From Azolla caroliniana (taxonomy: Eukaryota > Plantae > Polypodiophyta): a DNA stretch of 64,000 bases. The position numbers and the translations under genes are program-made. The stretch covers positions 21,700,001 to 21,764,000 of the forward strand of contig JBHGNT010000009.1 in assembly GCA_043228905.1 (NCBI GenBank), read 5' to 3'. The notes below the pieces were generated by a model. That model searched no databases. It was not told the DNA's origin and saw only the letters and a list, made by a program, of their open reading frames with translations. Of this stretch, positions 1 through 64,000 are shown piece by piece (within the stretch, counting starts at the first letter, position 1; every line of letters starts with the position of its first letter).

Positions 1-143
1 CACAATCGTCTCCGAAAACAAGAATGACCCGATTGTAAACCTAAACGACCGATTCCTTACAATCACAAGTCACCCAATTCATCCTTGGTCAAAGACCCCG
101 GTGGTCCCGTTTGACCGACCCACAGGAGTGGATTTCCACGACA
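1..143 (+). mobile_element. 3' end of an LTR of the tRNA-Trp-primed gypsy group, inserted into the integrase of copia A
   Basis: Ends caaagaccccggtggtccc...ccacgaCA, like the LTR end of element C (ccaagacccccgtggtccc...cgcgaCA). Followed by ACGT (144-147), where the minus-strand copia integrase (QQNGVTER) breaks off. Confidence 0.75.
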
Positions 144-2496
144 ACGTTCGGTTACTCCGTTCTGCTGAGGACTCCTGTAGGATTCCTTCTTGTCTAAGGT
201 ATGTTGTAAAGGCGTCAGAGAAGTACTCTTTGCCACCGTCCGATTGCAGGCATTTGACATGCCGACCGGTTGCCTTTTCGACTTCATTTTTGAATTTTTG
301 GAAGTGTCCGAACACTTTGCTCTTTTGCCGCATTGGATAAATCCAGGTATGTCTGGAGAAGTTGTCAATGAACGTTACATAGTACCGACAACCACCAAAT
401 GTTTCTGTCTAGGCTAGTTCCCATACACATGTCAATGTATTATATCAAGGATCCCTTTGCTTATGTTCCTCTCTTTTGTAAACGGTTGTTGGTGTTGTTT
501 GCTGAATTGGCAGGCTTCGCACATGCATGCAATTTCCTTTTCGGTGAAGGTCGGGAGTCCGATGAAGACTCCTTTCGACTGCATTCCCTTGAGCTTTTGG
601 AGGTTGATGTGGCCAATTCATTCTTGCCACAACTCTATGTTAGTGTCGGCCTTTCGGCCCTTGGCATACATTGCCAATTTCATCTCATGAGAGTCGAGGA
701 TGAATATTTGACCTTCTCTCCGACCGCAAGAAATAAGTCGACCTTGCTTTTTGATGAAGCAACCTCCGTTGTAGAACCAAACTTGCATGCCTTGTTCCAC
801 AATCTGGCTGACCAAGACTAGATTCTTCGTTATTGTCAGAACATGCAAGACATTTTTTATGTACACCTCATTCCCTTCTTTGCCAAATAGGACATTGCCG
901 ACATGTTGAATGGGGTGGATTGTGTCATCCCTAGTTTCCACATAGCTTGGTCGTTCGGGCTTTCGTAGTTCTTTGAACTAATGCTCGTGGGATGTCATGT
1001 GGTTGGATGCACCCGAGTCGACAAACCATACATCTTCTGGTTTGGAGGTGTTGGTAAGGTTGGAGGCTGTCATCGAGTTCGCTTTGTGCCTCATCATAAA
1101 CATTCCGCCACGATTGTCGTAGTCGGAGTTGGAGGCATAGTTTCTGAGTTGTCGACTTGTGGATGCCGACTGACTCTTCTTTTTCCGATACTTTGCCTCA
1201 TAGTGGCCGAATTTACCACAGTATCCACACTAGGCGGGATTGTTTTGTTGGTTGGGTTCAGCATGATTGCTCCCCCTTCTCCCGGACGCTCCGCCTCCCT
1301 CACGCATTCGAAACATCTTGTTGGTAATAGAAGTTATGTTCTCGGGGTTGCTCTTGGTTGTGTCGGCCTTGGCCGAATCAGCCTCTTCCTCTAGGACCTT
1401 GTCCTCTTCCTCCATCGAAGTTCGAATAGAGCATTTGTCCTTCTTGGGCATTGCTTCTTGTTCGAACATGATTCTCCTCGACCAACAACATCGACTGGAG
1501 ATTGAAGGAGGGAGGATTCTCCCTCACGAGGACTGTTGACTGAATGGCTCCGAATTGAGGTGTTAAGCCTCCGAGGAAAATCTGCACCATTTCATCATCG
1601 TCAATGCTAACATTGATCGACTCGAGGGCATCACACAACTCCTTGATCTTCAAGGTGTAGCATTGTTGATTGATATGTCCCTTTGTTGTATATCGTTCAA
1701 CTCTTGATGGAGTTGAAGCTTTCTTGTGGTTGTGTTGGCTGCGAAAATCTTCTTGAGGTTCCCCCATGCCTCCTTCGGCGTTTTGGCCTCTCGGATGTAG
1801 CCAAACATGTGATCATGGACACATGATGCAACGGAATACAATACACGACTCGCCACTTGCTCCCAAGTTGGGTAGTCTACATGTGTTGGGTTGGGTTGTT
1901 TTTCGTTTGCTCCTTCAACATAACTCCAATAGCTTTGGCCGACAAGGTATTGGTGCATCTTGTACTCCCAAGATGCAAACTTGTTTTTGTCGAGCTTCTT
2001 GGTAGGAAGAGCGGTTCCCATCTGAGTGTTCATTGTCGAACTTCTTCTTCTTCTTCTCTTTGATACGAACTGTGCAAGTTGCTACTATAGTGATCAACTG
2101 GTTCTTTCCGGACGCGGGATTGAGCACATCACACGCAGAGGCGATGGTCTTCAATAAAGCAACCACGCGTTGTGATACCATGTAAAGAATCGGATGGATA
2201 GCGGAAGAACTCTGTGTGTGTGTTTGGAGAGAGAGAGAGAGAGAGGGAGAGCTCACGATTACAGAAAAACAGAAAACTATATTAACAAGGAGACAAGAAT
2301 AACCAACAGTTACAAAGAGAAGGAGAAGGTGCTTATGTAGTCACCTTCTCTCTCGATTCTCTCACTAGAAGCGCCTCTTGGGAAAGAGGTCGAGTCTTAA
2401 CTACCTAAAGAATATGTGTCATAGAAGTTAATATTCTATGACACACTAGTTAATGTACAAAGAGAGGGGTGTGTGGGATCAAACACGGGAAGTTTA
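144..2496 (-). mobile_element. Degenerate Ty1/copia element A (5' LTR part, gag, protease, integrase)
   Basis: Gag LPTKKLDKNKFASWEYKMHQYL (1650-2033), CCHC knuckle remnant (1094-1303), integrase CLQSDGGKEY (79-333). Met-i PBS (tgatacca 2173-2180) next to an LTR boundary at 2181. Many frameshifts. Same family as copia L. Confidence 0.88.
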
Positions 2497-2888: not shown

Positions 2889-5800
2889 CCCCTCTTCATT
2901 ATCGCCTTTGCTTCTAGAGTTATCATCTTCACCGTTCTTGCTTCTAGAGTTACCATCATCAACATCCTAGTCTTCAACATCATCTTTTTCTGCATCTCTT
3001 CGCCCAATCTTCATCGTAATCAATACCATAGTACGTAAAATTCGTGTTCGTAGCATAACATTCGTTTTCCTACATTGGAAAATGAATGCGAATGTTATCC
3101 AAACATTCTTGTGTTTTTTTCCCATTTTTTTCCCATTTTTTTTGTTTTTTTTTTGTTTTTTTTTCATATTTAGGCTTATCTACCTCATAATAAATAGTTA
3201 ATCCAAAAGTATGGTATTTATCATTCTTTGAGGGTGTTTTTCTTTCGCGAATGATTGAACCATTCACGAATGCGAATGCACATATGGTATGTATGGTTCA
3301 TACTATGATCAATACTATTTGTTATCATTTATAGGTATCATTTTGCATCACGATTTTGGTGAGGATTGCTTTCGATCACTCACCTTCCTAGTTTCGGTGG
3401 GGATTACAACCACTCACTTTCTTCGTAGGGATCGAATCATTGCTCGCGTGCACTCCATTTTCATTTTTGTACAAGTTTCATGCCACTTTCCTTTGGCGAG
3501 GACCGATTTCGATCGCTCACCTTCTTGTTCCGGTGGGGGTCACAACCACTCACTTTCCTTGTGTTATGTACACATAATGTTGGTGAGGGTAGGTCACTAA
3601 TATTTACATTAGTGAAGGGTATGTTCACTAATGTTAAAAAGGGAGCTAATGTGATTGGATAGAAGGAATGATAGGTGCATGCACTATCATGATTTGGGCA
3701 ACCAATGAATGCAGACCCTTTTAGAAAGGCACATCTATTCAAGGGGCCTAGGAAAAGGTATAAATATGAGGCTTAGCTACCCTCATAAGGACATTACGTC
3801 GGAAGGCTGCTGCTGTCTTAGACATCGGTGGTGCGGGCTAGGCTTTCGTCTCGACGATCGTGTAATCTCTTCCATGGTATTAGTCATCCTAATATCCGGC
3901 GGTATGGGATGTCGGTGGTTGGTTGGCTATATCTAGATCATAGCTCGGGGGTGATCGGGTGGAACGAGTTCTTCTATCCAATCTATTTTCCTTCTTTTAC
4001 TTTATTTTGGTGTATTAATTAGTAATAGACTCTTAATAGTGGTATAAGAGCATTTACTAACAATTTTTTGTTGTTGTTTTTATGTTTAAAGTGTGAGCGA
4101 TGGGGATCTAACAAGGCTCGTCATGCTCTTCATAGGATCAAAACAACATTCTTAACTTGGTATTCTTCTTTTTTGATCTCTCTTTTCTTTTCTATGATGC
4201 TTTCTTCTTGGTCATATGAAAGTGGTATTACGTTTTATGTTCTTTTCTTTCTTCTTTCTACCATGATACGATATTAATCTACTTACGCATCGGATCGAGC
4301 GTGTTTACACTAATCACACATGCTCACCTCATGGCCCTTTTGCATATGATGTTGAGTATGGCACCCTTCCCTTTACTGAGCCATCACTTGGCCGATTCTA
4401 TGGGATGTGGTCTTAACGAGGTGTATGTCGCCTACCTATGCCACTCTACTCTCTATTGAGCCATCACTTGGCCGATTCTATGGGATGTGGTGGTCTTGAG
4501 GAGGTGCATGTCAATTACCCTAGGGTTTCTTACCTTAAGGCATGCTTAATGTTCCATACACCTAATTGATTATTATTCTAATTAATTTCTAATTACACAA
4601 ATTGTCGTTTCACTTTTGTATGATCTTCTAGTAATTGTCATTTACCCACCCACAATTAACTCTATTTTTTCCCTTCCTTTTCATGTTTAAAGTATTTATG
4701 TGCGTTTACCTATGATGTAACGCTTCCGTGTAGACTATTTTTTCGTATTGAGTGGGCATCATGCCGTTTTTTGAACGATTTTTTCCAATGGGTCATCTAG
4801 GTTTAACTTATATTATCGAGCCTTAGAACTCGAGTAAAACCACATGAGTTCCCCTATTGATGTTTTACTCATAGATTTGAGTACTACATCTTTGCGCACA
4901 ACACGACCACCACTTGTATCAATTTGTGGCTTATATCACAATTGTGCAAATTACAACCACCATATTGGGATGGATATGTGCATACTACACACCGTCCATT
5001 TATTTATGGTATTTTTGTTCAGTAGAAAACGCATGGTTTTTGAACCTTGTTTTCGTCACTCCTTGACTCTTATAGGTAGTGACTTTTTTTTCTCTTTTTT
5101 TCATAACATTTGCTTGCTACTCGCAAGATTAGAATATTACTTGCGAGTGCATTTGTTTTTGCACGTAATAAAATTTCTCGACCATATCAATACATGCCGA
5201 GTTGACATTTTAATACAAGGCTAACTAGGAAATTACATTGATGCCAGAACCATGGTTGAGCCTCGAGGAGCTGCCATGATTAAAAACCATAGTGTTACCA
5301 TAGTTATCGGATCTCGAATAACATCTCATATGTCTAGACGGGTAAAGACGTGAGATGCTTTCTTAGTAAAGTTCTTCCAATCAAAATTTCAAGCATTCAT
5401 TTTGCTTGTGTATTTTCTGAAACTCCTTATTTATATTGCATATCCACAACTTGCATCATGGAACAAGTTTTCAACGTTATTGGGGCGATCTTTGCGACCG
5501 AGACCTCTCAACTCCAATCCGCATCTCGCACACAAGCTGAGATCACTATTGAGAAATTGCTCACTACTACCTTGAATCAATTGGCCGAAATGCGGCAAAC
5601 CAATATGGCATTGAAAAAGAAATTCCAAGAATTTACTATTGAGTCCAAGAAAGAAGGTGAACCTTCTTTCGTAGTAATGTTGTCGTGAAGATTCCCGGCT
5701 ACGGTGCGAAACCCGGATGGAATGGGCAAGTTGGTGATGTGCAACGTGTGCACATGTATATTAGGAATAAGTATAGAATAATAAGGGGAGTATTTATCCC

Positions 5801-7836
5801 ACATTGTAACGTCTCTCCCTCCTAGTTCTATAAAAGGAAGGAGGGGTCTCTTGAGAAGGGGTTGCCTATTTTGTGTTAGAAGGGTATCCACTTAGATCTA
5901 GGGTTTGGTAGTCTCTCTCTTCTTTGTTAGGGTTTTGGTTGTTCTAGGGTTCTTCTTCTCCCTATCTGGTCTAGGGTTTCGTCTAGGGTTTCATTCTTCT
6001 TCTCCCTATCCGGTTTAGGGTTTCATTCTTCTTCTTTTCCTATCCGGTTAGGATTTGATCTAGCGGTGTTTGCATACGGCCTATATGGCCATGGTTGTAA
6101 ATCGTTTGGTGGCTTCTTAATGTAACTTGTTGGTGTATCTCGTCTTGGTCTACTACTCTTCTGTGTTAATATCTTCTTCTTTCTCCTAACCTCTTCCTAA
6201 GTCCAAGATCCTCGCGGTCCATCCTAAGATCCTACATGTACCCTGGAATATCGCGACATTCTTGGTGAACCCGACGTGAAAGGCGGCGAGGGAGAGTGAT
6301 CATGGAGGAAGAAGATTTAGAGGAAATGATGTTGAGAATGATCATGGAGGTTTTGAAGGGAAGAGAAAGGCGAGATGCGCCTCAACAAGTCGTTGAGAGG
6401 GTGGTCGATTAAGTTGGCTGGTTCAACGGGGGCGAGGTCCCAAAATTTTTGAGAGCCTACAATGCCGAGATGGTGGAGTGGGGCGTGGACGAAGTGACGA
6501 GGCTAGAATAATTTTGGCGAGTGGTGGCTGTATCGACTCGCGAAGAGGTCAAGGAGCTTCGAGTATAGCTCATGAGTCGTGGGAGTCTTTTGACAGAGCT
6601 CTATTGGAGGCGTACAGGTACGTGAAACTAGAGGGGTAAGGTCAGCTTGAGTTCGATCGATGGGTGGCGTTGGTGAAGGATCATCGGACCGCGATGGAAG
6701 CATTTCGAGAGTTTGGCTGTCGTTTTGCTCAACTCTTGGAGCGGGATCGGAGAGCAGTGGGGGCGGACAAAGTCCTCCTATTTTTGAAGACGGTCAATCG
6801 GGAGGAAAGGATGGACATTCTATTCGAGCTCGAAGATGATTATGGAGCACACGGCCTCACTGAGGATTGGACTAAAGTAGAGAGGGTATGCTGGTGAGAC
6901 GATGAGAAGCGATCGGCCACAATATGGCCCGCGAGCCGCGGCGAAGAAAGGGTGGCGGGTAACTATGCACTACCCCCGGAAGAGAGCTCAACGCGTAAGG
7001 GTTCGAAGGAGTTCAATCTAGAAGCATTGGTATGAGAGGCGTACGAGTTCTTGAAGACAAAGGTTGAAGCTGAAGAGGGGTTTATTATGGAGTTGGGTCC
7101 GAGAGGATCGAAGGACACAGAGGAATGCGCCTCCCTACATGTGGAGGACCGGGCCTATGTGGAGGCCGAAAGAGCGTACAACGCGTAAGGGTTCGCAGGA
7201 GTTCGACCTAGAAGCATTGATACGAGAGGCATACGAGTTCTTGAAGACAACGATTGAAGCGGAAGAGGGGTTTATTATGGAGTCGGGTCCGAGAGGATCA
7301 AAGGACACAGAAGAAGGTGCTTCCCTACACGTGGAGGGCCGGGTCTATGTGGAGGCCGAAAGAGCGTACACCGGTGACATAGGAGAGGGTGCCGAGCGAG
7401 CGACCCTCTCGCCTTGTGGTAAAGGGATGGCCATGGAGAAGGTCGGGAACTACAGAACAATGAGCGCCACTTCGAGAGTGGGTAGAAGTTTCGGGACACG
7501 GTTGGCCGAAAAATCAAACGAGGAGGTGGCAAGCGTAATCGAGGCTTGCGTAATCGGGGACGGGGTAGCCATGGATGATGACGTCCGGATAAAGGTGGCT
7601 ACGGACATGACGAACGGTGGTGCCAGGACCTTGCCCACATCGGTTCTGGAGACTTCGACGGTCGGCTACGAGAAGCCACGTGAGATCGAAGGGACTGACG
7701 GTGGCGGCAACAAGGTGAATGAGGAAGTGGGTAGCGGGCGGAGGCGAGATCCCTTGACACCCGTGCCAGAGACTACATCGGTTGTGCCCGAGTGCCAACA
7801 TAAGACTGGAGAGATGGGCGGTGGCCGTGAGGAGGC

Positions 7837-8146
7837 TGTTACCCGTAAGAATATACGGGGAGGCATAAGGGTATGTGTAATGATGTGGTTGATGTGTATG
7901 TAGTAAAGGAGTGTGTGAGGATGAGTATGTGTATGGACACGTGCAGAACTATGTGCATGTGTACAAAATTGCGTAACGGTCATGTAACTGTTACATTGAA
8001 TGAATTATATAAACCCCCTATGGGGTATGTAATGGATAGCTTTTTCCCCCTGATTTTGGTGTCATCCTTGTTTCACTCTCTCCTTCTTTCTCTCTAACGT
8101 AACTCCCATTAGAGGAAGGATGGCTTCACCCCCAACCCCAACAACA
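7837..8146 (+). mobile_element. Solo LTR (310 bp)
   Basis: tgtt...aaca termini, perfect 5-bp TSD GAGGC, internal TATAAA. Interrupts the ORF of element B. Confidence 0.88.
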
Positions 8147-9398
8147 GAGGCGTGGCCCGGAGCAGGCATATACAAAATGGAGGTGGCTGATGAAGAGGCA
8201 AAGGGGAAAATGGTGGCGAAGACCAGTGAAGAGGTCGGGAGTGGAAAAGAGGAGAGACTCGGGATTTGACCCGACCGGAAGATGACCTGGTCGGTAATCC
8301 GACTCGAATGGAAGACAATCCGGCTAGAATTCCGACTCACACGAAAGAAGAATGGAGCGAGGGCCATTCAACCGGGCCCGACCTGGAAGAGAACCCAGAC
8401 GGCCAAAATTGTTTGGTCGAGCTGTATTGGTTGAGTGCGAAAACGGAAGAAAGCTGACCGAACTGGAACCGAGCTGGTCGAGACCAATCCGGACAAGGGC
8501 TTAGCCGGCACGATCTGAGATCGAGATGGACGAGCCACAACGCACAGTCGGAGTTGGTGAGCATGAGGACGAGGCCAAGTGGGCACAATGACTACGGCTC
8601 GGTGAAAGACTAGGAACGAGGGGAACCCTCCACACCTATTCTCGAGACTTCAGCGGCTGCGGATCTACATAAAACCGAAGAGACGGTGGGTGGCGGCAAG
8701 GAGTTGGAGATCGACGCGGATGATGATGCTGAAGCATGTATTTGGTGCGGAATGATGGCAATGAAGAGGGGAGAGTCCGACGCGGAGGTCGGGACTACGG
8801 CCAGGGAAGGGCGAGAAATGAAGCATGCACTACGGCCGCTCGAGGGCCAAGAAACAAACGTGCACCTAGAGGAGCCGGTACGAGTGACCGATGATAGTGG
8901 TCGGGTCGAGCCTTTGAGAGGCAAGTACGGGAAGAAAGATGGTGCGACGAGGTGATGAGATCGACAGAACGAGTCGAGCGTGATCGGCATGGGCTGAGGG
9001 TCGTGTCTAGGGAAACGGAGGAGGTGCATAGAGAACGAAGGGCTACGCACCGGGAAGAGCAGATCGGCCATGGTATTGTCTTTCCCGAAAATGTGTCCTA
9101 CTTCCGGAAATGTGTCGTATGCTATCCACCTGAGCATCGCCAGGTCCGACGTCGCGCATCCGGAAACCATGCCAAGAATTGGCAGGTAGTCCGTCTCGAT
9201 AATTACCTCTGTCCCGATTAGGTAGTCTCTATCGGCCTTTACCGCCGAAACGATAGCCCAGAGCTCGCGTTTAACCTGGGCGTATCCTCGCTGTCGCTCG
9301 CTGAGGACCTTCGCACCGAACCGGATCGGGAAACGCATGCTGTCCTCGCCCTCTTGGTTGACGACCCATCCGATCCCAATCGGACTCGTGTCCACCGT

Positions 9399-12300
9399 TG
9401 TCGTGAAGAATTTTGGCCATAGGCGAAAACCGGGAAACATTGTCTACATCGACGGGGTGTAGCGTGTGTACGCACCCATGTACATTTGGTGATAATATCG
9501 AGGGCGCTTTTATGACGCCGAAGAGTAGACAAGTCGGGATAGACGATCCCATGCAAGTCGGGATTTGTCCCACATTGTAACGCATCCCTCTCCTTGTTCT
9601 ATAAAAGGGAGGGAACACCCTTTGTAAAAGGGTTGCCCATTTTGGATTAGAGGGTATACCGGTAGGTTTAGGGTTAGGTTTCTTCTGCTTCTTCTTCTTC
9701 CCCTTCGTGTTCGTTTAGGGTTGGCTGCAGCTTATCTCCTGTGCAAGACCCCGCTCGGCGCAACGAGCCCGAGAGCTCCCCGACGACGGCTTGACAACAG
9801 ACGGCTGTTGTAAGCTATCCTGGTCCGGCTCGAAGCCGGGAGCGTTTTCTTCTTATATATATATACATATATGTTTGCGTCTGTCTGTGTATATTGGCGT
9901 CTTGTTGGTGTCGGGTGTTCCCCTCCTTCCCTGCGTTTCCTGTACAAGAGGGCGTGTGTGCGTGTGCGTATGCGCGCGCGCGTGAGTCGGTCTCAAGCAC
10001 GCTCTCTCACTCCCTCTCTCCCTTCGGCTGCTTCCGGTCCGTTTCAGGGGTGCCCCAGAAACGGCGAAGTGCGGTTTCCTACGCTCCGTCGCTCCCTAGT
10101 CCAAGACCCCCGTGGTCCCGCCTTTCTCCACGCACGCGCGTAACAACGCGACATATTTGGTGAACCTGACGTGAAAGGCGGCAAGGGGGGATGGAGTCGG
10201 AAGGCGACGACCTTGCGGAGATGGTGGCCGAAGTGGTGTTGGAGTCGGCACGAGTGGTGATGAGGCGAGAAGCAGCGCAACAAGCGGTTGGGCGAGTGGT
10301 CGAAAGAGTTGGCCGTTTCAACGGGGACAAAGTCCCATCTTACTTGGAAGCCTACAACGCGGAAATGGAAGAGCGTGGCGTAGACGAGGCGTTGAGGCTG
10401 GAGTTGTTCTGCCGGGTCGTAGCTGTCCGGATGCATGCGGAAGTAATGGAGCTCTATGAGGCTCATGGTTCGTGGGAGGCCTTCGAAGAGGCGCTCTTGA
10501 AGGCATACAGAGGACGGCGGAAGAACCGGGGACGGCACCACTTCGACCAGTGGGTAGCATCGGCAAAGACCCACCGGGGTGCGACGAAGGCGTTCCGGGA
10601 ATTCGAGCGACGACTTGCTCGGCTCCCAGAGCGGGAACAAGGTTTGGTGGGGGCGGACAAAGTCCTTTTGTTCGTTAGGTCGATCGATCGACCGGAACGG
10701 GAAGCCATCGGGATTGAGCTCGAAGACGATGATGGAGCGAATGGGCTTATGGGGGACTGGTCGAAGGTCGGAAGGGTGTGCCAAAGGCTAGACAACGAGT
10801 GAGCTGAGAAGGCTAAGAGGAAGGTACGCGACGGCGTGCCATCACATCGGGAAGAGGCCGAACGGCAGGGAGAGTCGGCAAGGGTCGGCGTTGGGGCCAG
10901 GATTGCGGAGGCGTACGCAGCGATCAAAGCGATGCTCGAGGAAGAGGGGAAAATCGAAGCCGAAGAAGGGCTTATTATGGAGTCGGGCCGGAGGCGATCG
11001 GAGGATGAGGAGGCTGAAAATGAAGGGTACGATGGTACCACGGGAGAGGGCGCGGGACGAGCCACCCTCTCGACTTGCGGAGATAGAACGGCCAAGGACG
11101 AGGCCGAGATACCGATCGCGGAATCGGAACGTTTGGACCAGTGGTTTCGGACGGGTCAGCCCGAGATCCCGGTCGTCAGAGAGACAAGCCCAGGCGGGGC
11201 TTGCGCGATCGGTAAGAAGACGACCACCGACCACGAAGAGTCGGTGGCTACGGACAAGGGCATAAAACGGACAGGCGATTCTTTGTGTCTTCCCACACTT
11301 GCTCCCGAGACGATGGCAGTCGGGCCCGAGTGCACTCCTCGTCGGCCCCTTTCCGGCCTGATCGTGCATCGCTGTTCACCCGCATACCGGTTTCCTTTGC
11401 ATCCGAGGAACACCCCGCAGTAGCCCGCTTGGCCCTTCCCGTCATCGTGCTGCTGAAACAGGTCCTGGGTCTTTCGCTTGCCGTTGTCCCCTCGCCCCCA
11501 CCAGCTTGTCACCCCGGCTTGCCGTGTCAGTCTTTGTTACTTCGACGGAGTTACCGAGATCTACGAAGCGAGTGTGGAGGATCCTCCTTAGGCCTCTCTT
11601 GCCATCCTGGTTCCGACCCTGTGCAGTCCACTAGGCACTTGTCCCTTCGTTCTGGGCACCTCCCTTGTGCCGTCTTCCGCTTCCTTCGTTTGGCCTCGCC
11701 CGCGCCGAACACCGTCCCGTAGTCACGCTTCGATCCGGCCCATGATGGCCACTCGTGAGACTCTTGTTCTGTCCAAGGTGTGCCTTTCCGGCCTGACACA
11801 CCTCTCCGTGTTTGCCCCTACCGGCTCCTTCCGAACCTCGTGTCGTCGGGTCCCGTTCCCTGACGCCACCGTCCTTCTCCCTCGGTCTCACATTGCCACG
11901 TTGGCCGAACTGCCGGAGCCTCCGGATCGGTGTGAGGGTCCCATAGGACCGGACTCCGTTTCTATGCTTGCGGTAAGTCGGGTGTCTTTTGTTTGAGTCC
12001 CTCCCGGACTCTCGTCGTGTCTTCCGCGTAGCCGGGTCCTGTTTCCCGCCGCCACCTTCCTTCTCCCTCGGTCTTACGTTGCCACGTTGGCCGAACAACC
12101 GGGGTCTCCAGTTAAGTGTGGGGATCCCGTACGACCGGACTTCCTTATGCCCGTTGTCTTCGTCACCTCGCCGCCACCGTCAGTGTCTTGGTCTTACGTC
12201 GACCGTGTTGTCGACTGCCGAAGTCTCTAGAACCGGTGTGAAAGATCCTCCGTAGACCTCCGATCCATAGCCCTTGCCTTCGTCACCTCGCCGCCACCGT

Positions 12301-14375
12301 CAGTATCTTGGTCTTACGTCGACCGCGTTGCCGACTGCCGAAGTCTCTAGAACCGGTGTGAAGGATCCTCCGTAGGCCGCCGATTTGTCTTCCCGACCCT
12401 GTCCCGGGTCGTCCTTTTCCTCATGCCGAGAGGGCGGTTTACTCCGCACCCTCTCCCGTGGTACCGACGTACCTTCATGCCGAATCCGGCCCCAATCGAA
12501 CGATCCACGACCGGATTCTGCTCCATACGTATCGAAATGCCGATCGCCTCGTGCCGCGTCCGCCCTCGGCCTCCTCGCAGGCCGTTTCCCATCCGTCTTC
12601 GTTGGCATCGTGCCAGGACTCCTCGGTACCGCCATCCATCTCCTCGGTCTTACATGGGCATACGGGCCCGAATGCCGAGTTCTCCGGAATCGGGTTCGAG
12701 GGCTTTAGTCTACTCCTTCCGCGTATCGTCTCGCCGGTGATTCTTGGTCTATCACCGCCACCTTCCTCAGCTTGGGACTCACGTGCAACACGGGCAGTAC
12801 CAAACAACAGACAAGGGTAAGTGGCACACGGAGGTGCCGGAGCGGAAAGACGAGCGTGGAGAAGGCCGGAAAGGGATCTTCCACGTCGTTTCGGAGACCA
12901 TGGCGGTTCGAGCCGACGCGGCGATGTAAGACCATGGAGAAGGAAGGTGGCGGCGGAAGGACGAAGGCAACGCGAAACACCATCGGGACATCACGATTCG
13001 ACAACGGAGGCCAAGCGGGCTGCCATGGGCATTCCTCTAGCGGAGGACATCGGGCATCGTGGTACGGAGATCGCGGCAGAGGACCCATCGACGGGTCGAA
13101 CGAGCCTACGGGGAGGCGAGCGCGAAGGAAGACTCGAAGCTGTCGGATCAAACCGGCAGCGAGCCGAGATGCGGATCACGGGAGACCGGTTTCTCATCGG
13201 CCGAAATCTCTCACCCTTCAACCAGATTGGCACGTACCGGTGGACGTGCAGTTAGGTGGGGGCGGATGTCGTGAAGAATTTTGGCCATAGGCGAAAACCG
13301 GGAAACATTGTCTACATCGGCGGGGTGCAGCGTGTGTACGCACCCATGTACATTTGGTGTGAATATCGAGAGCGCCTTTATGGTGCTGAAGAGTAGTCAA
13401 GTTGGGACAGACGATCCCATGCAAGTCGGGATTTGTCCCACATTGTAACGCATCCCTCTCCTTGTTCTATAAAAGGGAGGGAACGCCCTTTGTAAAAGGG
13501 TTGCCCATTTTGGATTAGAGGGTATACCGGTAGGTTTAGGGTTAGGTTTCTTCTGCTTCTTCTTCTTCCCCTTCGTGTTTGTTTAGGGTTGGCTACAGTT
13601 TATCTCCTGTGCAAGACCCCGCTCGGCGCGACGAAAACCGGGAAACATTGTCTACATCGGCGGGGTGCAACGTGTGTACGCACGCATGTACATTTGGTGT
13701 GAATATCGAGGGCGCCTTTATGGTGCCGAAGAGTAGTCAAGTCGGGATAGACGATCCCATGCAAGTCGGGATTTGTCCCACATTGTAACGCATCCCTCTC
13801 CTTGTTCTATAAAAGGGAGGGAACGCCCTTTGTAAAAGGGTTGCCCATTTTGGATTAGAGGGTATACCGGTAGGTTTAGGGTTAGGTTTCTTCTGCTTCT
13901 TCTTCTTCCCCTTCGTGTTTGTTTAGGGTTGGCTGCAGTTTATCTCCTGTGCAAGACCCCGCTCGGCGCGACGAGCCCGAGAGCTCCCCGACGGCGGCTT
14001 GACAGCAGACGACTGTTGTAAGCTATCCTGGTCCGTCTCGAAGCCGGGAGCGTTTTCTTCTTATATATATATACATATACGTTTGCATCTGTCTGTGTAT
14101 ATTGGCGTCTTGTTGGTGTCGGGTGCTCCCCTCCTTCCCTGCGTTTCCTGTACAAGAGGGCGTGTGTGCATGTGTGCGTGCGTGTGTGTGTGTGTGTGCG
14201 CGCGTGAGTCGGTGTCAAGCACGCTCTCTCACTCCCTCTCTCCCTTCGGCTGCTTCCAGTCCGTTTCAGGGGTGCCCCAGAAACGGCGAAGTGCGGCTTC
14301 CTACGCTCCGTCGCTCCCTAGTCCAAGACCCCCGTGGTCCCGACTTTCTCCACGCACGTGCGTAACAACGCAACA
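9399..14375 (+). mobile_element. Complete pol-less tRNA-Trp-primed LTR element C, inserted in the RNase H region of D
   Basis: LTRs 9399-10153 and 13267-14375. PBS tggtgaacctgacgtga. PPT ggtgggggcgga. 4-bp TSD ccgt/ccat; removing the element restores IYVTVDTSP in D. No pol motifs in the 3.1 kb interior. Confidence 0.92.
10191..10802 (+). CDS. Gag capsid-like protein of element C
   Basis: RFNGDKVPSYLEAYNAEM...KVLLFVRSID...WSKVGRVC aligns by eye with gag of D, B and E. ATG lies just after the PBS. Confidence 0.8.
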   Translation: MESEGDDLAEMVAEVVLESARVVMRREAAQQAVGRVVERVGRFNGDKVPSYLEAYNAEMEERGVDEALRLELFCRVVAVRMHAEVMELYEAHGSWEAFEEALLKAYRGRRKNRGRHHFDQWVASAKTHRGATKAFREFERRLARLPEREQGLVGADKVLLFVRSIDRPEREAIGIELEDDDGANGLMGDWSKVGRVCQRLDNE

Positions 14376-17300
14376 CCATTACGTAAATTGGAATGCTCTG
14401 TCCGTAGACAGCCTTTCGGAGCGCCGGAGCCGCGACAAATGCTCCCTTCATCTTCCGGACAGACTCCGTATGCTCGTCTCTCCACTCGAATTTTTGCCCC
14501 TTTTTCAGCAACCTATATAACGGCTCCGCGACGTGAGCATAATGCGGGATCCATATGTGGTAGAACGCGCACGCTCCCAAGAACCTCCGAACCTCCGTGA
14601 CCGAACTACAGTCGTTCTTCATCGTGGAGATGGCTTCTACCTTAGCCGGAGACGGTTTCCGGCCATACGGCCCGCATAGGTGTCCAACGACCATGATCTC
14701 TGATTGCCTGAAGGCCTACTTTTCCCCAGAGAAGGTGAGCTTCGCGCCCTCCAACCTTTGCAGCACCTTCTCGCAGTCATCGATGTGCATTGCCACGAAT
14801 TTCCGTCATCCATCCGGTCTGATCGTCTCGTCCCTTTCCTCCACCGGGCATCCCTTGATCGGGACGTCGTCCAAAAACGGCATGGTGATGTCCGGGATAC
14901 AATCCCCCAACACTTTGTTCATTGCGTTCACCATGTGAGCCACCGAGTTCGTCCCTCCTTGCGGCAGGGTACACATCCGCACTAGGCCGAGAGGAGTTCG
15001 CATTCTCGTGATGTCTCTGCTCTCTACGGCAAGCTGGAACTGATCGTACCCGAGTAGAGATCACCGACCGAGTAAATCGACCTTCCGACGGAGGCCTCTG
15101 CGAACTCGTCTATTGTCGGTCCGATTCTTGCGTTTCGAATGGTCACCTTGTTGACCGGCTGTAGGTCTTGAATAAAGCGCAGCGTACCGTCCTTCTTTGG
15201 CACGGTAAACCACCGATTCGAGTATGGGGCACTCGACGGTTCAAGGATTCCCATCTCGACCTTCTGCTTTAACAGCTCCATCAGCTTCGGGATGTGAGCT
15301 CTGGGTACTAGAATCGGTTTGAGACTCCACGGCACATGCGGTACCGTGAATATCACCATTGGTTCCACGACTGTCGGGTCTACGCACCCGATCTCCTCGA
15401 GAGAGAATGCGAAAGCCTTCTTGCACCTTCCGAGCATTACCCGAAAACGGTCCTCTTCCACCGACAGTAGGAAGCCGCCCCCACCGACCTTGAGCTCCCG
15501 TAGCGTTATGTCGGTGAACGTGTGTCCTATGCGGGCCGGATTTCGTAAACTCGGGTCCGACACAACCCCCTTTATTCGCAACTCGCTGCCCTTCGGCAAG
15601 GGAGCCGCGACTGGCCTCACCTTCCGGTCCACAGTCTTGTACCTCGTGTCCACCCGGGCCGTCCGATCCGACTCGAGCCCTCTACTGAAGTCTGCGATGA
15701 CTTCGTACATCCTTTCCGAACATACCGGAATCGTCTGGTCCTCTTTAAGGACTCCTCTGACTACCTCCCGCAGCTCCCCCAAGGTATCGTCGAAAGAGAC
15801 CGCCTCCACGGCTCCGTTGATTTCCTCTCCGAGGTCGAGGACGCCACATGCCGGAAGTCGCTCCTCCGCCCTTCTCTTCTTCCGGCCAACAACGTCGACT
15901 ATCGTACACCCTCCGTTGTCGGAGAACCAAAATTTCCTACTTATAGTACAGGTCTTCTTCGCTACCATACACTTGTGGGGTTTTCCCAGAGTGTCCCGAC
16001 TATCGCGGCCCCACGCCTTGATAGCCCTCTTCAAAAATCCTCCCGGCTTTCGCCCTTGAGGGTCTCGCAGTTCCTCTCATGGTTCGGTCTCACCGTCAGG
16101 AACTGGACCGAGTGACGCCCATCCTGGCTCTTGACCCTTGCGTAGGCCGAGCCGTTGTCCAGCACCTTGGTCTCCATCCGTGCTGCCGTGATGTACGGTT
16201 CTCCTGCACGAAGAAGTACTGGTCAATCTCGACATCGCCGATCTTTACTCGTACGTTTGGGCAGGCTCCATGCAGTTCTTCGGTGGCACGCGTCGCCGCC
16301 CGTATTTTCCACCCGTGCTTGGTGTTGATCGGCCATTTTCCCTTCTTATAGAAGTCCATGGACATCAAATTGATTTCTGAACCATGGTCCACCAACACCA
16401 CCACCGGTTCATGAACATCTCCGATCTTCACGGGGGTCTCCGTGGTCGCTCTGGCCCAGTGCGGCCTCGAATAGTGGCTCTCCGCCAACTCGTCTTCCAG
16501 CGCCATGTCCTCTATGTGCGTCGTCCGCACCTCCACCGGCTCATGAACATCTTCGATCTTCACGGGGGTCTCCGTGGTCGCTCTGGCCCAGTGCGGCCTC
16601 GAATAATGGCTCTCCGGTTCTGTCTCCGTCGACAGCCTCTTCTTCTTCACCAAGTCTACGATGGAGTCGTGGAACTCCTTCTTGGCGATCCCGAGCACTT
16701 CCCTCAGCGACAGTTCCACCTTGCTGTCGAGGGTTCGTTCTTCCAGGACCTTCCGCAGGTCCGTGGATCTTTTGATTTCTGTGCCCAGCCGGTACCCGCC
16801 CTTCTTGGGATTATCCTGGGCGCCGGTTACACCGGCCTCATTCCGTCTTTGCCCGAATCGATTTTTATATCGCTGCGAGGGCCCGGCCCCTCCGGTTTTC
16901 CCTACTCGCTTGTCCTCCACCAGAGCCTCGTAGTTTTGACAAGCGGCTTCGACGAAGCCCGTCTTTTCTCCCACCGGGTCACTCCACCTGGTTACCTCCC
17001 GGACCCGTTTTTCCGCGCGGTCCACCTCTTCTTTCCTCAGTCGTGCGTCAGCGAGGCCTTCTAGCATCGTCGGCTAGAACCCGGCTTTGTTTGTCTTCGG
17101 GGCCTCGCCACCTCCGACCCAAATACCAGCTGATGCCGAGTAGTGGACGGTCTCCGCGTGACGAGCCGCCGCCTCCTCCATCAGCCTTTTCATACCCCCT
17201 TGCCCGACGTTCAGGTTCAGGGCCCTTCGGGTCTCGCTGGTGTGCACCCGACCGTTCCACAGGTACACCACCTTGCTTCTCATCGACTCGGCGAAGTCCC

Positions 17301-18198
17301 CGCAGTCCTTCCGGATGTGCCCAACCGCGTCACACCACATGCACCTGTTTTCAGCCAGAGGTCGTCGGTCACGGGCCTGTTCGCCACCATCCCTCTATGC
17401 CTGGGCGATCTGGAGATCCTTTACCATCCTCGTCAGCTCTTCCAGAGCTGCTCCCCCGGACGAGCCCTTGACCATGCCGGTTGAAGCCGATCCGGTCTCG
17501 AGCCAATCTTGGGTCTCTTCCCTTCGCGTTGGTGGTGTTGGCTCAAGCTTCCTTGCTGCGACAGAGCCCGCCCTTGTCAATCCTTTGTCAACCCATTCCC
17601 GCCGTTTGTCGAAACGGCCACAAACCCTTTTCACCACGGCCCAGTCGGCCGTCAGCCCGTCATCAGTCTCCAATAGGAGGCCTACTTGCTCCCGCTCCCG
17701 GTCGTCAACCGACTTAACAAACAATAGGACACGACTTGTGTCCAGAACGGCTCGGTCAAGCACTGAGAGGCGCGCGAAGCGTTCCTCAAACTCCCGGAGG
17801 AGCACTGACGCGTTCCTTCCTTTGTCGGGGGTCTCCACCCACTCCATGAAGTCCCCCTTCGAAAGTCAAAGCGCATCTTCAAGCCCGTATCTTTCGAGGA
17901 GCCGACCTTCGAACTCCTCCGAGGTCCGGCTCTCGGCCCGTACCTCGAGCACCTCCGTATGGATGCCCGGCATCGCCACTCGAGGGAATCCAGCTAGACG
18001 CCTCTCTTCCGGAATGTCCCTCATTACCATTTCAGCCCGGTAGGACGACAAGTAGCTCCTGGCATCCTTCCCACTAAACCGGCTGATCGTACTTACAACC
18101 GCCTCGATAGCCCTATCAAGGGCGCCGGTGCCTTCGCGCGCACTCACTATACGGTCCACAACCGAAGCCATGGCTTCTGCAAGGTCTGACCCCCTCAT
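14376..18198 (-). pseudogene. gag-protease-RT of element D, frameshifted
   Basis: Consecutive ORF pieces 17866-18198, 17395-17847, 17074-17340, 16096-17067, 15024-16034, 14806-15003 and 14266-14694 carry gypsy motifs in order. Confidence 0.9.
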
Positions 18199-20471
18199 CT
18201 TCTACTCCTTTGCCGCCTGTTCACGTTGGGTTCACCAAATATGTCGCATTGCTACGCGCGTGCGTGGAGAACGAGGCAGGACCACTGGGGTCTTGGACCG
18301 AGGAATAGGTGAGGAAGCGAAAGGAGAGAGAGACACGCTCACATACGGATAGACAAAGGAGCGCGTGGGAATGCAGCCTAATCAACACAAGAGACACAAG
18401 TTGGGCAGGAGATAGAGTATAAGAACGCGTATATAAATATATGTATGCAGATGACTCGATCGGCTACAACCGATCAGGTCGGCGAGACGGGTGTCGACGC
18501 CTGATCACCCACGCACACAGGGGAGCAAGATGGAGATTCTGCCGGAAGCACACGGGCGTTCCACGGAGCAGAATCAGCCTCTCGAGAACCTGCGCAAAGA
18601 AAGCTATGGAGAACGACAGAGGAGAAGAGCTCGGTCCCAGTTCGACAACACTTCGTCCCCTCTAGCGCACTATATCTCTCTCCCCCCGTCTGCCTCTCCT
18701 TTATAGCTCAAGGAGGGAGGTTGTTCACCCGTTTACATCACATTAATTCTCTGTCCTTTCGGACAGAGATACTCCTCGATTTCCCCTATAGAATATTGCT
18801 ACCTACCTATCTACTATACAACAAGGGGCGTGCCCACGTGTAAGGGCCGGTTCACGCACATTATACACGGTTTGCGCCTGGGGACGGTTTTCTTCACGAC
18901 AACGTGTAGCGTGGTCGTGTAAGGGCCGAAAGATGAGCGCGAGTTCAAAGAAGGTTGAGGCCGACAGGAAGGGATCGAGAAGGGAAAAATGGGACACGAT
19001 GGTGCTGGGACATGTGCGCGGCCAAGTCGAAACAAGTGCAAGGAGTGAAGGGAGACTTGTCGGTCCGACAGTGATGATCGGGAGGTCTATTCGAGCCGAA
19101 AGGGAGATAGAGTGCGATCGCCGGATTTGGCGAATCGAATGGAGACTACGGTTCAGGAAGCCGCACAGAAGGATCGAATGGGGACGTAAGACGGAGGAGA
19201 CAGAAGCGGGGAACATTGACACAGACATCGGGATGGAGGTGCACTCCACCGTGAGAGAGAACCATGGGCAAGGGCGAGATGAGGAGCGCGTAATGTGGTC
19301 ACATAAGGACCTGAGAATGAGCGGGTATTCGGAGGTCAACATCGACGCGTGGGTAGAGCCTATGGAAGGCAAACGTGGAACAGAGGGAGACGACACACCG
19401 AGGTGCTTGGGACGAGGAAACGGTTGAACAGAAGGAGGAACACAGACAGTATGGGAGGGGCGGTATACAACGTGCAATCGGAGTGACCGGGAGTCCATTC
19501 AGAGGACACGCACGACAGATGAAGGAAGAGTGATTGGATCGGCAACACCGTCCGGGAAGTTAACTACGTTCGGTCGAGGAGGAAGGTTGAAGCGTCAGAT
19601 ATGGTGGATCGAATGGAACCAACGGATCGGGGACATATGGTGGGTACGATGGATTGGGAGGCTATAATGGTTCGTGTGGAAAGGACGGGCATGCTCGAAA
19701 TGGAAGACGAAGTTGAGCAAGGTTAATGAGGAGAACCGCGGGGGCAAGTTCTCGAAAGAAGGGCGGGATTGGTCCCTGAAATTGACGGTGCGGGACCGGT
19801 AGAGGCCAACACGATAGTTAGGTATCGGGACGACGGAGAACCCAGTTGATCACCGTCTCTGAAAATCTTTCACCCTCTCCCTTTCTTGGTAAATACCAGT
19901 GGATGTGCGGTTGGGTAGGGGTAGATGTCATGAAGATTCCCGGCTACGGTGTGAAACCTGGATGGAATGGGCCAGTCAGTGATGTGTAACGTGTGCACAT
20001 GTATATTAGGAATAAGTATAGAATAATAAGGGGAGTATTTATCCCACATTGTAACGTCCCTCCCTCCTTGTTCTATAAAAGTAAGGAGGGGTCTCTTGTG
20101 AAGGGGTTGCCTATTTTGTGTTAGAAGGGTATACCACTTAGATCTAGGGTTTGGTAGTCTCTCTCTTCTTGGTTAGGGTTTTGGTTGTTCTAGGGTTCTT
20201 CTTCTCCCTATCTGGTTTAGGGTTTCATCTAGGGTTTCATTCTTCTTCTTTTGCTATCCGGTTAGGATTTGATCTAGTGGTGTTTGCATACGGCCTATAT
20301 GGCCATGGTTGTAAATTGTTTGGTGGTTTCTTAATGTAACTTGTTGGTGTATCTGTTCTTGGTCTACTACTCTTTCGTATTAATCTCTTCTTCTTTCTCC
20401 TAACCCCTTCCTAGTCCAAGACCCCGCGGTGCCGCCTAAGATCCTACACGTACCCGTGGAATACCGCGACA

Positions 20472-33461: not shown

Positions 33462-33553
33462 TGTTGGAGACAAGGCCGTCAATGCGGAAGATCAAACACC
33501 ATTCGATTCGTGTTGAATACCTGCGTATGACAGTTTCTAAGGTCGTGCACAGA

Positions 33554-33592
<39 letters not shown>

Positions 33593-42262: not shown

Positions 42263-42340
42263 CACTCCTCAACGTACTCCAGTTTTCTCTTTCCACTTGC
42301 CCCTACACAATGCTTCCGAAAATGCAATCGTAAAGGATAA

Positions 42341-52496: not shown

Positions 52497-53381
52497 TGTC
52501 GGGGTAGTTGTGGTTCGTGCGGCGAAGTCGCAAGGACTAAGGTTAAGGGGAGTTGAAGGAACTTTTATTAGGCTTGCGCGCAAATGTTAGGAAGATAAAG
52601 GATATGAGGAATAATAGTTTAAAGTAATATGTGTGAGAGAGAGACTAGTATAGATAAAAGATAGAGGCAATGTATGATTCAAGACGCAAGATAGAGACAA
52701 AGTATGATTTAAGACAAAAAAGTATATGATATGAACATGATGTATATTATGAATACAAGATTTTACCAACTTTACAATGTTTGGTAACAAGATGAACCCT
52801 TTCTCTATCGACCCTTGATTCGAACTCTTGACTCCAACTTGGAAACACGAGCCTCTTCACCAACAAGCTAACTTGTTTGTTTTTTTTTATTATCTTATTT
52901 CTCTAACTTTCTCTTGATCCCTTTGTTTTCCCTTTCCCCTCTTTATATAAGTGTTACCATGCATATGGTAATGTATGGGAGCATGGCATGCATGCAATGC
53001 ATGAGTTACATGTAATGCATGATCGCCATTTGGCGCACATGCATTGCATGTGATGAATGATGGCTATGTATGAAAATAGATATGGGATAACTATAATGAT
53101 GAAAATGCATTCTAAAATAACTAACCTAGCTTAGTGGTGTATACTTGGTGCTTGGTATACAAGGTTGAGGGTTCAAGTCCCTCAATTTTACTTAATACAA
53201 TATATAGCTTCATTCTTATATCATGAAGCACATTTATTACACACTTTTACAAATAAATAGCCTAGCCTAGTGGTATGTACATTGTATATTGTTTATAAGG
53301 ATGTGGGTTCAAGTCTCTCAAATATTATTAAATACAACATTTAAGCTCATTTTTATATCGTGAAGCACATTCTTCACGACA
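52497..53381 (-). mobile_element. Solo LTR H of the tRNA-Trp group
   Basis: Minus strand starts tgtcgtgaagaa, as do the LTRs of C and D. Perfect 4-bp TSD ACGT. TATA near 52945. Confidence 0.87.
53127..53320 (+). promoter_or_regulatory. Two tandem tRNA-like A-box/B-box (Pol III type 2) modules inside LTR H
   Basis: tagcttagtggt...gaggg-ttcaagt-ccctc (perfect T-arm) and tagcctagtggt...gggttcaagtc, with tRNA-like spacing. Confidence 0.6.
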
Positions 53382-59043: not shown

Positions 59044-59102
59044 ACATGTAATTGGATGACCACCACATAGTGTTAGATAATCAAAAGAGGATAATAGGAG
59101 TA

Positions 59103-61516: not shown

Positions 61517-64000
61517 GTATAGGATTAGATAGATCCAAGACTCGTTGGCCAATTGCCGAGTATACGTTGTCGTAGTGTAATTCGCACACTATGAGAAAAT
61601 TGCATTTTTTTCCCTCCGGATGGGACAAGGAGGAATCGGTAAAGAAGAATCGGTGAGAACCAGATGAAGGAGGAAGTAGTAAAGAAGAACCGATGAGAAT
61701 TGGATGAAGGAGGAACCGGTAAAGAAGAAGCGGTGAGAACCGGATGAAGGAGGAATTAGTAAGGACCGGACCCAGTAAGGAGAACCGGATGAAGAAGGCC
61801 GGTGAGAGTCTCTCACCGGATGAAGAGACATATTTGTAAATAGAAGAAAGTATAAATATATATATTACATGCATAGGGCAAGATTCAAACCTTGCACCTC
61901 CATGTTTGTAATGTAAAGCCTTACCATTACACTAATATATCATTAGTGTTAAAACAAAGTAAACGTCCCACATAGAAAGGTAAGTTCACCCTAGGATAAA
62001 CTTTAGTTAGAAGAAAATGCATGATAAAAGAAAAAGCTATGCATGCACATGTAGGGTGCATGAAAACCATAATCGATACAAACGCATCAAATTAGAAAAA
62101 GTAGGATCACTTTAGAAAAAGTATAAAGTCTATCTATAGAAAAAGCATGGATTGTTAAAGACTCTCTCATCACTATATAAGGATGAGGAGCACAATGTAA
62201 TAGTGTGTGAAATACTTGGAAATTGGATATATTTCCTAAAACACCAATTAATATAATATATTCATGGGATCCATGAATTTGTGATCAAAATTGTCTCTTA
62301 CTATCTAAATATTGATTAAATACACTAAACTTGTGGGATTCACGAGATTGATAACTTACCTGTTTTTCTACCTATTCATTTCTAGCCTTCTCTGATATTC
62401 TTCTTTCTCGTAGTCCAAAACCTCAACGGTTCCCGCCCGACTCACGCAACGATCCGACGCCGAAAGGCACGACAACGTACATGGGTCTGAGTTTGATTGG
62501 TGGTATCCAAGCTGCTTGATGTAGGAGTCGAACTTTTGGTACCACATCCTTGGTGCTTGTCTTAAACCATAAAGGCTTTTCTTCAATCGACATACGAGGT
62601 GACTTTCCTCCCATGTCACTGTGAAGCCTGCTGGATAAGACATCTAAATGTCTTCTTCCAGATCTCCCTATAGGAATGTTGTCTTTACGTCCATCTTCTC
62701 AAGCTCTAGGTCTTTTGTCGCCACGACCCTACTAGGAGCCGAAGGGTGGTCATCTTGACTACAGGTGAGAATATCTCGTCGTAGTCGACCCCGTGTTCTT
62801 ATTTGAACCCCTTCACGATGAGCCGAGCTTTGTATTTGGGCTTCTCTGAGTTAGATTGATATTTGTACCTGGAAACCTATTTGCAAGGTAGCAACTTCCT
62901 TTCAGTTGGTTGTTCGACCATCTCTCATGTCCGATTCTGATGAATCGAATCCATTTCGGATTTCATGGCTTGTAGTCATGAGGTAGCAGCTTCCTTTCAA
63001 TTGGTTGTTCGACCATCTCTCATGTTCGATTCTGATGAATCGAATCCATTTCAGATTTCATGGCTTGTAGTCATGAGGTAGCGGCTTCCTTTCAGTTGGT
63101 TGTTCGACCATCTCTCATGTCCGATTCTGATGAATCGAATCCATTTCGGATTTCATGGCTTGTAGTCATGAGTCGGCATCTAATGCGGCTATAGATTCTT
63201 CGTATGTGCTTGGTTTGCTTGCATCGGTGTAGTTGATGTAGTCGAGACCCGATTGATAAAACTTTTTTGGTCTTCTAACTCATCCAGATCTCCTGGGTGC
63301 CAAATGGATCGGTTCAGATCCTTCGATCGGTTATGTCGGTCAATCGGCATTTACCACTTATGTCAGGAGTCCTGTTGGATGACTCACCCTTGTAATAGGA
63401 GTTCAGCGATGTCACATCACCCTCCCCTGCTCCAGGATTGATTGACTTGAAGATAGGATTCTTAACCAACTCATGTCGACTTTTCCCCTTACCCTTTTTG
63501 GTGTGGTAGTCGAATCGACTCTGTCTCTATCAATTTTGTCGTTTTCGACTAGCACCTTGTTGGGTTTTGTCAATTTCTTAATGAAATCCATTTCGACTAC
63601 ACGACCTCTTTTGGATTCAGCGATGTCACATCACCCTCCCCTGCTCCAGGATTGATTGACTTGAAGATAGGATTCTTAACCAACTCACGTCGGCTTTTCC
63701 CATTACCCTTTTTGGTGTGGTAGTTGAATCGACTCTATCTCTATCAATTTTGTCGTTTTCGACTAGCACCTTGTCGGCTTTTGTCAATTTCTTAATCAAA
63801 TCTATTTTGATTACACGACCTCTTTTGGATTCGGAGTCCACAGGTGTGGTGTCAACGTGGTCGATTTTGACTGTTTGTCGAATCTCTGATTCAACCTGGT
63901 GGGTTGGTCTTTCTACGACTTCTTTGTCGATTTCGAAGGAGACCTTTTCGCTCACTATTTTCTACTTGTTCCGTTGAGAGAGAATATAGTCTTCATTGAA
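61516..64000 (-). mobile_element. Degenerate copia RT-region fragment M with internal tandem duplications
   Basis: CRLKKSLYGLRQAPRMWYQKFD, SDPCTYTRQLANESWIYLILY (split by G). Three 95-bp copies at 62896-63170 and two copies of about 214 bp at 63402-63830. Confidence 0.88.
61568..62474 (+). mobile_element. Solo LTR G, same family as the LTRs of element E
   Basis: Reverse-complement match to 26038-26884. Perfect 4-bp TSD ACGT. Extra 39-bp-unit minisatellite at about 61616-61830. Confidence 0.92.

What the first reader, a model, noticed from the sequence alone, without database searches (positions are those of the whole stretch)
1..62478. A tRNA-Trp-primed gypsy group always inserts at CpG-centred 4-mers, mostly ACGT
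Seen: eight separate insertions and their flanks. LTR end at 143: ACGT. B: atgt/acat. C: ccgt/ccat. D: ACGT (one flank). F: acaa/atga. E: atgt/acgt. H: ACGT/ACGT. G: ACGT/ACGT. Every mismatch between paired flanks is a C>T or G>A change at the central CG, so all reduce to NCGN and six to ACGT. The other LTR elements here have unrelated 5-bp TSDs (GAGGC, GCGGC, GTTCT, GCTTC). Known: most plant LTR elements make 5-bp TSDs with weak sequence bias, and methylated CpG decays by deamination. Inference: this integrase recognises a CpG palindrome, possibly methylated, which would steer it into silenced transposon DNA without a chromodomain. All eight sit inside other transposons, though the window is mostly transposon anyway.
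Basis: partly seen in the sequence, partly recalled or inferred. Interest (0 to 1): 0.82.

Follow-up and report, generated by a model that had tools for sequence, protein, structure and literature searches.

The report
Phygy-type retrotransposons inserting at CpG sites
Eight retrotransposon insertions in this plant DNA sit at four-base sites centred on CG or its decayed forms, a habit already published for the moss Phygy group, to which they likely belong; whether DNA methylation guides them is untested.

Summary
All eight LTR ends have the stated flanks. The duplication is 4 bp, not 5, and an empty site for H shows a 4-letter overlap. In an independent set, 22 of 22 flanks from related contigs are N(CG/TG/CA)N and 17 of 22 are exact NCGN, against a 6% background. 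'Mostly ACGT' does not hold there: 6 of 22. Neumann et al. 2019 (PMC6317226) define the moss Phygy clade by a 4-bp NCGN duplication (100% of 186), a tRNA-Trp primer site (81%) and no chromodomain. Element D's protease groups with 17 Physcomitrium proteins and with Riccia and Adiantum proteins (SH-aLRT 99, quick tree). Full pol genes of relatives show no chromodomain and no extra RNase H. These are very likely Phygy members in another, unidentified plant. No TA-centred site appeared in 22 flanks, which favours reading of CG over mere DNA bendability. Guidance by methylation is untested, and one indirect test was neutral. What is new is small: a wider host range and an A-CG-T lean.

The parts
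1..143 (+). A: 3' end of an LTR (cut by the window edge), followed by ACGT at 144-147, inside a copia-type element
   Evidence: short matches to 10 PBS-bearing loci
5681..20471 (+). B: element with LTRs 5681-6258 and 19926-20471, PBS 6263-6280, gag remnant; flanks ATGT/ACAT; contains D and C
9399..14375 (+). C: non-autonomous element, LTRs 9399-10153 and 13267-14375 (first ~340 bp doubled), PBS 10158-10175; flanks CCGT/CCAT; sits in D's RNase H coding region
   Evidence: (P0001 residues 316-541 end at 14374; 540-659 resume at 9398)
9045..18901 (-). D: truncated, broken autonomous-type element: 5' LTR 18242-18901, PBS 18220-18237, gag/DUF4100, protease, RT, RNase H; integrase and 3' LTR absent; one flank ACGT at 18902-18905
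23641..24628 (-). F: solo LTR in the integrase of a chromovirus-like host; flanks ACAA/ATGA (left flank ambiguous)
26038..29728 (-). E: non-autonomous element, LTRs 28920-29728 and 26038-26884, PBS 28898-28915; flanks ATGT/ACGT, in a copia gag region
52497..53381 (-). H: solo LTR, flanks ACGT/ACGT, in a high-copy repeat; empty site seen in 4 of 4 runs
61568..62474 (+). G: solo LTR of the E type, flanks ACGT/ACGT, near the edge of a copia-like element that interrupts a P450 gene

Best explanation
These eight insertions sit at 4-bp CG-centred sites and likely belong to the Phygy clade of non-chromovirus Ty3/gypsy retrotransposons, whose integrase likely cuts the target with a 4-base stagger and likely reads the central CG itself, methylated or not. 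Shown: 4-bp duplication, CG centre, shared PBS, and no chromodomain or extra RNase H in full pol genes of close relatives. Inferred: priming by tRNA-Trp; a sharp bend at the central pyrimidine-purine step, as in other 4-bp-stagger integrases, plus base contacts that choose CG over TA and disfavour T at the first position. Also inferred: the two copies are methylated with the surrounding repeat DNA and decay independently to TG or CA, which explains the mismatched pairs. Membership in Phygy about 0.9; the methylation-independent mechanism about 0.7.
For: Published Phygy traits match: 4 bp (100%) NCGN, tRNA-Trp 81%, no extra domain, 186 elements. Independent flanks: 17 of 22 exact NCGN (background 6%, P=3e-17) and 22 of 22 N(CG/TG/CA)N; the 4-mers four bases further out are 0 of 22 and 4 of 22. 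No TA centre in 22 (P=0.005 if any YR step would do); 17 or more CG of 22 under YR-only choice P=7e-7. Empty site of H with a 4-letter overlap in 4 of 4 runs, plus ATGT and ACAT variants. Contigs on G's 3' end run on into ACGT: loose ends after 62477-62479 number 80 (X3) and 75 (X4), while 62475-62476 are not among the 12 rows shown. D's protease lies in an SH-aLRT 99 group with 17 Physcomitrium, 14 Riccia and 7 Adiantum proteins. No Chromo or extra RNase H hit in 5 full pol ORFs or in the 1861-aa Riccia polyprotein. LTR pairs of B, C and E show 19-37% of CpG sites decayed against 3-4% change elsewhere. Precedents: YR centre in 4-bp retroviral sites (PMC4422553); ZAM integrase binds CGCGCg in vitro (PMC2527525 abstract).
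Against: No REXdb profile or Phygy-labelled sequence was on hand, so the Physcomitrium proteins are taken as Phygy by elimination. They cover gag, protease and only the start of RT. The tree is the quick one on 135 columns; the careful search did not finish, the outgroup is unnamed, and long branches meet. One full unit (L008) is 7.3 kb, just under the Phygy range of 7.7-10.0 kb. TSD CpGs are decayed in 6 of 14 flanks against 3 of 21 LTR-terminal CpGs (P=0.11), and all eight hosts are repeats; both would also fit a liking for methylated targets. Nothing here tests methylation at the time of insertion.
Confidence: 0.65

Rival explanations
1. Same lineage, but the integrase prefers methylated CpG and so homes to silenced repeats without a chromodomain.
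For: All eight hosts are repeats. At least 10 of 22 independent flanks look like transposon sequence. TSD CpGs decay somewhat more than LTR-terminal CpGs, 6 of 14 vs 3 of 21 (P=0.11). Empty copies of H's site are themselves decayed in some copies. Phygy is reported enriched at liverwort centromeres (PMC12885004) and nested in Tcn1 in moss (PMC6911290).
Against: The window is mostly repeat, and the loci were chosen by the family's own PBS, so repeat hosts are expected. Deamination of a methylated target in the single-stranded gap would give CA on the left and TG on the right; seen 4 against 7 the other way (P=0.55). A CG-specific gypsy integrase exists in Drosophila (ZAM), where CG methylation is essentially absent (recalled).
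Confidence: 0.2
2. No base reading: a 4-bp-stagger integrase simply needs a bendable pyrimidine-purine step at the centre, and CG dominates in a GC-rich genome.
For: Retroviruses with 4-bp duplications favour a central YR step and avoid T at the first position (PMC4422553 section 6). T is the first base in only 2 of 44 strand-folded flanks.
Against: CG is only 26% of YR steps in the loci, yet 17 of 22 centres; TA is 0 of 22. Paired TG/CA flanks in the window never match each other, as true TG or CA targets would. The retroviral enrichment is only about 1.6-fold.
Confidence: 0.07
3. A different lineage that shares the traits, such as TatI (4-bp TSD, tRNA-Trp) or an unnamed sister clade of Phygy.
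For: TatI also has a 4-bp TSD and a tRNA-Trp PBS. D's gag-protease is only 37-51% identical to the Physcomitrium proteins.
Against: TatI always carries an extra RNase H, which is not found in the relatives. NCGN is reported for Phygy alone. The protease tree joins D to the moss proteins.
Confidence: 0.06
4. Boundary artefact: ACGT is part of the LTR's terminal inverted repeat.
For: ACGT is palindromic and abuts both ends in several copies.
Against: At internal junctions the LTR ends meet the spacer plus PBS or the purine tract, not ACGT. The empty site holds one copy. Flanks vary: CCGT, ACGC, GCGG, TCGC and others.
Confidence: 0.01

Closest known systems
Phygy clade, non-chromovirus Ty3/gypsy (REXdb; Neumann et al. 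2019, PMC6317226)
   Same: 4-bp TSD, NCGN target, PBS read as tRNA-Trp, no chromodomain or extra RNase H, protease grouping with Physcomitrium proteins.
   Different: Described as specific to Physcomitrium patens and later listed in a liverwort (PMC12885004). This host seems to be another plant (37-51% identity to the moss proteins). An A-CG-T lean, short non-autonomous copies and solo LTRs are seen here.
TatI (non-chromovirus, OTA/Tat)
   Same: 4-bp TSD and tRNA-Trp PBS.
   Different: Has an extra RNase H in 100% of members; no NCGN preference reported.
Drosophila errantiviruses of the ZAM subgroup (CGCG targets)
   Same: Ty3/gypsy integrase with a CG-containing palindromic target; ZAM integrase binds its site directly.
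   Different: Animal lineage with env, longer CGCGCg consensus; relationship to this group not tested.
Retroviruses with 4-bp duplications (PFV, MoMLV, PERV, XMRV)
   Same: Central YR step favoured and T avoided at the first position.
   Different: Weak preference for any YR step; here CG is close to obligatory.

Membership tests
Phygy | 4-bp TSD | tested here: met
   6 of 6 pairs fit 4 bp and not 5; 4-letter overlap at the empty site
Phygy | NCGN target | tested here: met
   window 8 of 8 sites allowing CpG decay; independent set 17 of 22 exact, 22 of 22 with decay
Phygy | PBS complementary to tRNA-Trp | tested here: inconclusive
   The 18-nt PBS of B and E is the exact complement of an abundant CCA-ended plant small RNA listed as miR894. 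That this is the tRNA-Trp 3' end is recalled; no tRNA-Trp gene was found.
Phygy | No chromodomain, no extra RNase H | tested here: met
   Tested on relatives, because D lacks its integrase: P0001, P0002, P0019, L008, L079, L067. Control: a decayed chromodomain-like stretch of another element scored only E=0.025, below cut-off, so Pfam could miss a very divergent one.
Phygy | RT/RH/INT phylogeny inside the REXdb Phygy clade | tested here: inconclusive
   No labelled Phygy RT available. The protease tree groups D with 17 Physcomitrium proteins (SH-aLRT 99, quick tree); one moss protein is 53% identical over 119 aa at the RT start.
Phygy | Length 7.7-10.0 kb | tested here: inconclusive
   No intact copy in the window; relative L008 is 7.3 kb with both LTRs
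TatI | Extra (archaeal-type) RNase H | tested here: not met
   only the Ty3-type RNase H in six relatives
Tcn1 and other chromoviruses | Chromodomain, mostly 5-bp TSD, self-priming or tRNA-Met | tested here: not met

The most novel reading that the evidence does not exclude
Phygy is an old lineage shared by mosses, liverworts and ferns, and its integrase reads 5-methyl-CpG directly. That would steer it into methylated repeats without a chromodomain and make it a retrotransposon targeted by DNA methylation itself.
Probability: 0.15. Interest if true: 0.75.

Novelty: new member of a known kind. Interest (0 to 1): 0.22.

Why it matters
As it stands, this repeats a published trait of one plant retrotransposon clade in another host and refines it: strict CG, a lean to A-CG-T, T avoided at the first position. 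It also suggests that Phygy reaches well beyond one moss, since close relatives occur in Riccia and Adiantum. Two practical points follow. LTR finders that need exact or 5-bp TSDs would miss many copies, because the TSD decays at its CpG. And Phygy is the one plant LTR clade that the REXdb survey reports as having a sequence preference. If the integrase proved to read methylated CpG, that would be a new way of targeting heterochromatin.

Tried and rejected
No whole genome is held, so no genome-wide TSD logo could be built. The PBS pattern found 0 stretches in viral contigs. The search for a tRNA gene matching the PBS found nothing. Naming the unnamed RT relatives could not be done. The host lineage is unresolved: the P450 search gave 2 hits, at 39% (unnamed) and 28% (Vitis). 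The ESM Atlas gave only generic Ty3 pol clusters. Earlier findings of this scan: none. Loose-end counts were not used as a logo: the aligner may extend over mismatches, 45 rows were hidden, and the ends at 62474 are mostly PBS junctions. Small-share runs were not used. The strand-asymmetry test was neutral (7 vs 4), and the TSD versus terminal CpG decay test was not significant (P=0.11; 0.21 without F-left). Rows dropped before the count of 22: locus L007 (same contig as L008); 16 of 33 LTR starts preceded by the purine tract (one, L057, assigned by hand); 1 of 6 3' ends (L006, degenerate PBS). The passages read of PMC7466625, PMC13469084 and PMC12405890 gave nothing on Phygy target choice.
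Full report
Verdict. The pattern is real and strong, but it is a published property of a known clade. Interest 0.22; new member of a known kind.

1. Observation. Self-comparison and the sequence give eight LTR insertions of one group, bounded by TGTCG..CGACA. Final flanks: A ACGT; B ATGT/ACAT; C CCGT/CCAT; D ACGT; F ACAA/ATGA; E ATGT/ACGT; H and G ACGT/ACGT. All six pairs fit a 4-bp duplication with changes only at the central CG, while the 5-mers agree at 0-2 of 5 letters. The LTR ends are fixed by the internal junctions. For C, the RNase H match to relative P0001 stops at residue 541 on one side and resumes at 540 on the other. For H, contigs of 4 of 4 runs skip the 889 bases with 4 letters fitting either side, and some empty copies read ATGT or ACAT. 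F is weaker, because its left flank equals the host's Gly-Gln codons. Other LTR segments have matched 5-mers GCGGC, GTTCT, GCTTC and GAGGC; one copia has CTTTT/GTTTT. LTR pairs of B, C and E have lost 7 of 19, 12 of 64 and 6 of 24 CpG sites in one copy, against 3-4% change elsewhere, so CpG decay is a sound reading.

2. Independent test. No genome is held. Their longer matches to the window are 65-87% identical, so they are relatives, probably from another organism. I scanned 120 of them for LTR ends by similarity of the terminal 40 bases, without looking at the flank. Of 33 starts, 16 follow the purine tract and 17 are true flanks. Of 6 ends not followed by a PBS, 5 were kept. Of these 22 flanks from 20 loci, 17 are NCGN (background 6%, P=3e-17) and 22 are N(CG/TG/CA)N; the next 4-mer out scores 0 and 4 of 22. 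ACGT is 5 of the 17 exact sites, against 4% of background NCGN (P=5e-4): enriched, but not the majority. First bases on both strands are A 21, G 11, C 10, T 2. These are low-depth assemblies of repeats, and one contig (L068) has unmatched ends. In two runs laid on G's 3' end, 80 and 75 contigs carry on for 3-5 letters into ACGTA, and depth falls about 25-fold after the 4-mer. This is qualitative support only.

3. What it is. D encodes gag with DUF4100 (E=3e-7), protease, RT and RNase H, broken by stops and frameshifts and cut before the integrase. B, C and E keep gag remnants of the same kind. Named RT relatives are from Riccia (up to 64%) and Adiantum (62%); unnamed ones reach 83%. The gag-protease query hits 17 Physcomitrium proteins among the 120 listed, at 37-51%. 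In the protease tree (53 rows, 135 columns, quick method because the careful search did not finish), D lies in an SH-aLRT 99 group with all moss, liverwort and fern rows, apart from 10 unnamed distant rows. Five full pol ORFs and one full polyprotein of relatives show RT, Ty3 RNase H and integrase, with no chromodomain and no second RNase H. The PBS of B and E is the exact complement of an abundant CCA-ended small RNA listed as miR894; its identity as the tRNA-Trp 3' end is recalled. The host plant was not identified.

4. Prior art. Neumann et al. 2019 (PMC6317226; passages, section 15 and supplementary file 3 read whole; the per-element table was not seen) state that Phygy elements have an insertion preference for NCGN, as the one exception among plant LTR elements. 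Their table gives 186 elements, 4 bp (100%) NCGN, tRNA-Trp 81%, 7656-9968 bp, no extra domain. PMC6911290 (passages) repeats the 4-bp TSD and reports Phygy nested in Tcn1. PMC12885004 (passages) lists Phygy in a liverwort, enriched at centromeres. I found no paper on a fern Phygy target logo or on methylation dependence. Searches; most listed papers were seen as titles only, subscription journals are not covered, and bioRxiv supplements are closed.

5. Mechanism. Shown: 4-base duplication and CG centre. Inferred: retroviruses with 4-bp duplications favour a flexible central YR step and avoid T at the first position (PMC4422553, abstract and section 6), which fits the shape of this site. But CG is 26% of YR steps in the loci and 17 of 22 centres, with no TA (P=7e-7 and 0.005). 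Bendability alone therefore falls short, and base reading is likely. ZAM integrase binds CGCGCg directly (PMC2527525, abstract; PMC5408687, passages), a precedent in a genome nearly free of CG methylation (recalled). For methyl reading: all hosts are repeats, at least 10 of 22 outside flanks look like transposon DNA, and TSD CpGs are decayed in 6 of 14 flanks against 3 of 21 terminal CpGs (P=0.11). Against or neutral: repeats dominate both samples, and the strand pattern expected from deamination of a methylated target during gap repair is seen 4 times against 7 (P=0.55). A 1992 paper on CpG methylation and retroviral integration in vitro was seen as a title only.

6. Scores. Phygy membership about 0.9; plain CG reading about 0.7; methyl-CpG preference about 0.2. 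The most novel reading, a methylation-guided integrase conserved across seed-free plants, has probability 0.15 and interest 0.75 if true.

Noticed in passing
window 3562-40945: A deep nest: an outer gypsy element (LTRs 3562-4036 and 40509-40945; weak chromodomain hit at 40325-40471, E=0.025) holds B (holding D, holding C), F, and a copia at 24784-39885 that holds E and another copia.
   Followed up: partly
window 46964-52394 and 33462-39031: Two related copia elements with no mismatch between their LTRs (279 and 303 aligned bases) and ORFs of 1361 and 1208 aa: very recent insertions.
   Followed up: partly
window 6259-6262, 10154-10157, 18238-18241, 28916-28919: All four PBS-bearing copies have a 4-nt spacer between the LTR's terminal CA and the PBS, longer than the 2 nt usual in retroviruses (recalled); it may bear on how the cDNA end is processed.
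   Followed up: no
window 6263-6280 and 28898-28915: The PBS is the exact complement of the abundant plant small RNA listed as miR894, which mapped to predicted gypsy repeats in the conifer Cryptomeria.
   Followed up: partly
window 60006-61516: Two-exon cytochrome P450 whose last exon runs into a copia-like insertion; the closest hit for exon 1 among longer proteins was only 39% identical.
   Followed up: partly
L008:186-11295: Three LTRs in a row sharing internal regions (starts 186, 6663, 10597): a tandem array or an assembly collapse.
   Followed up: no
window 41076-42298: Tandem array with a unit of about 46-48 bp.
   Followed up: no
window 13267-13974: The 3' LTR of C carries a tandem doubling of its first ~340 bp.
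   Followed up: no
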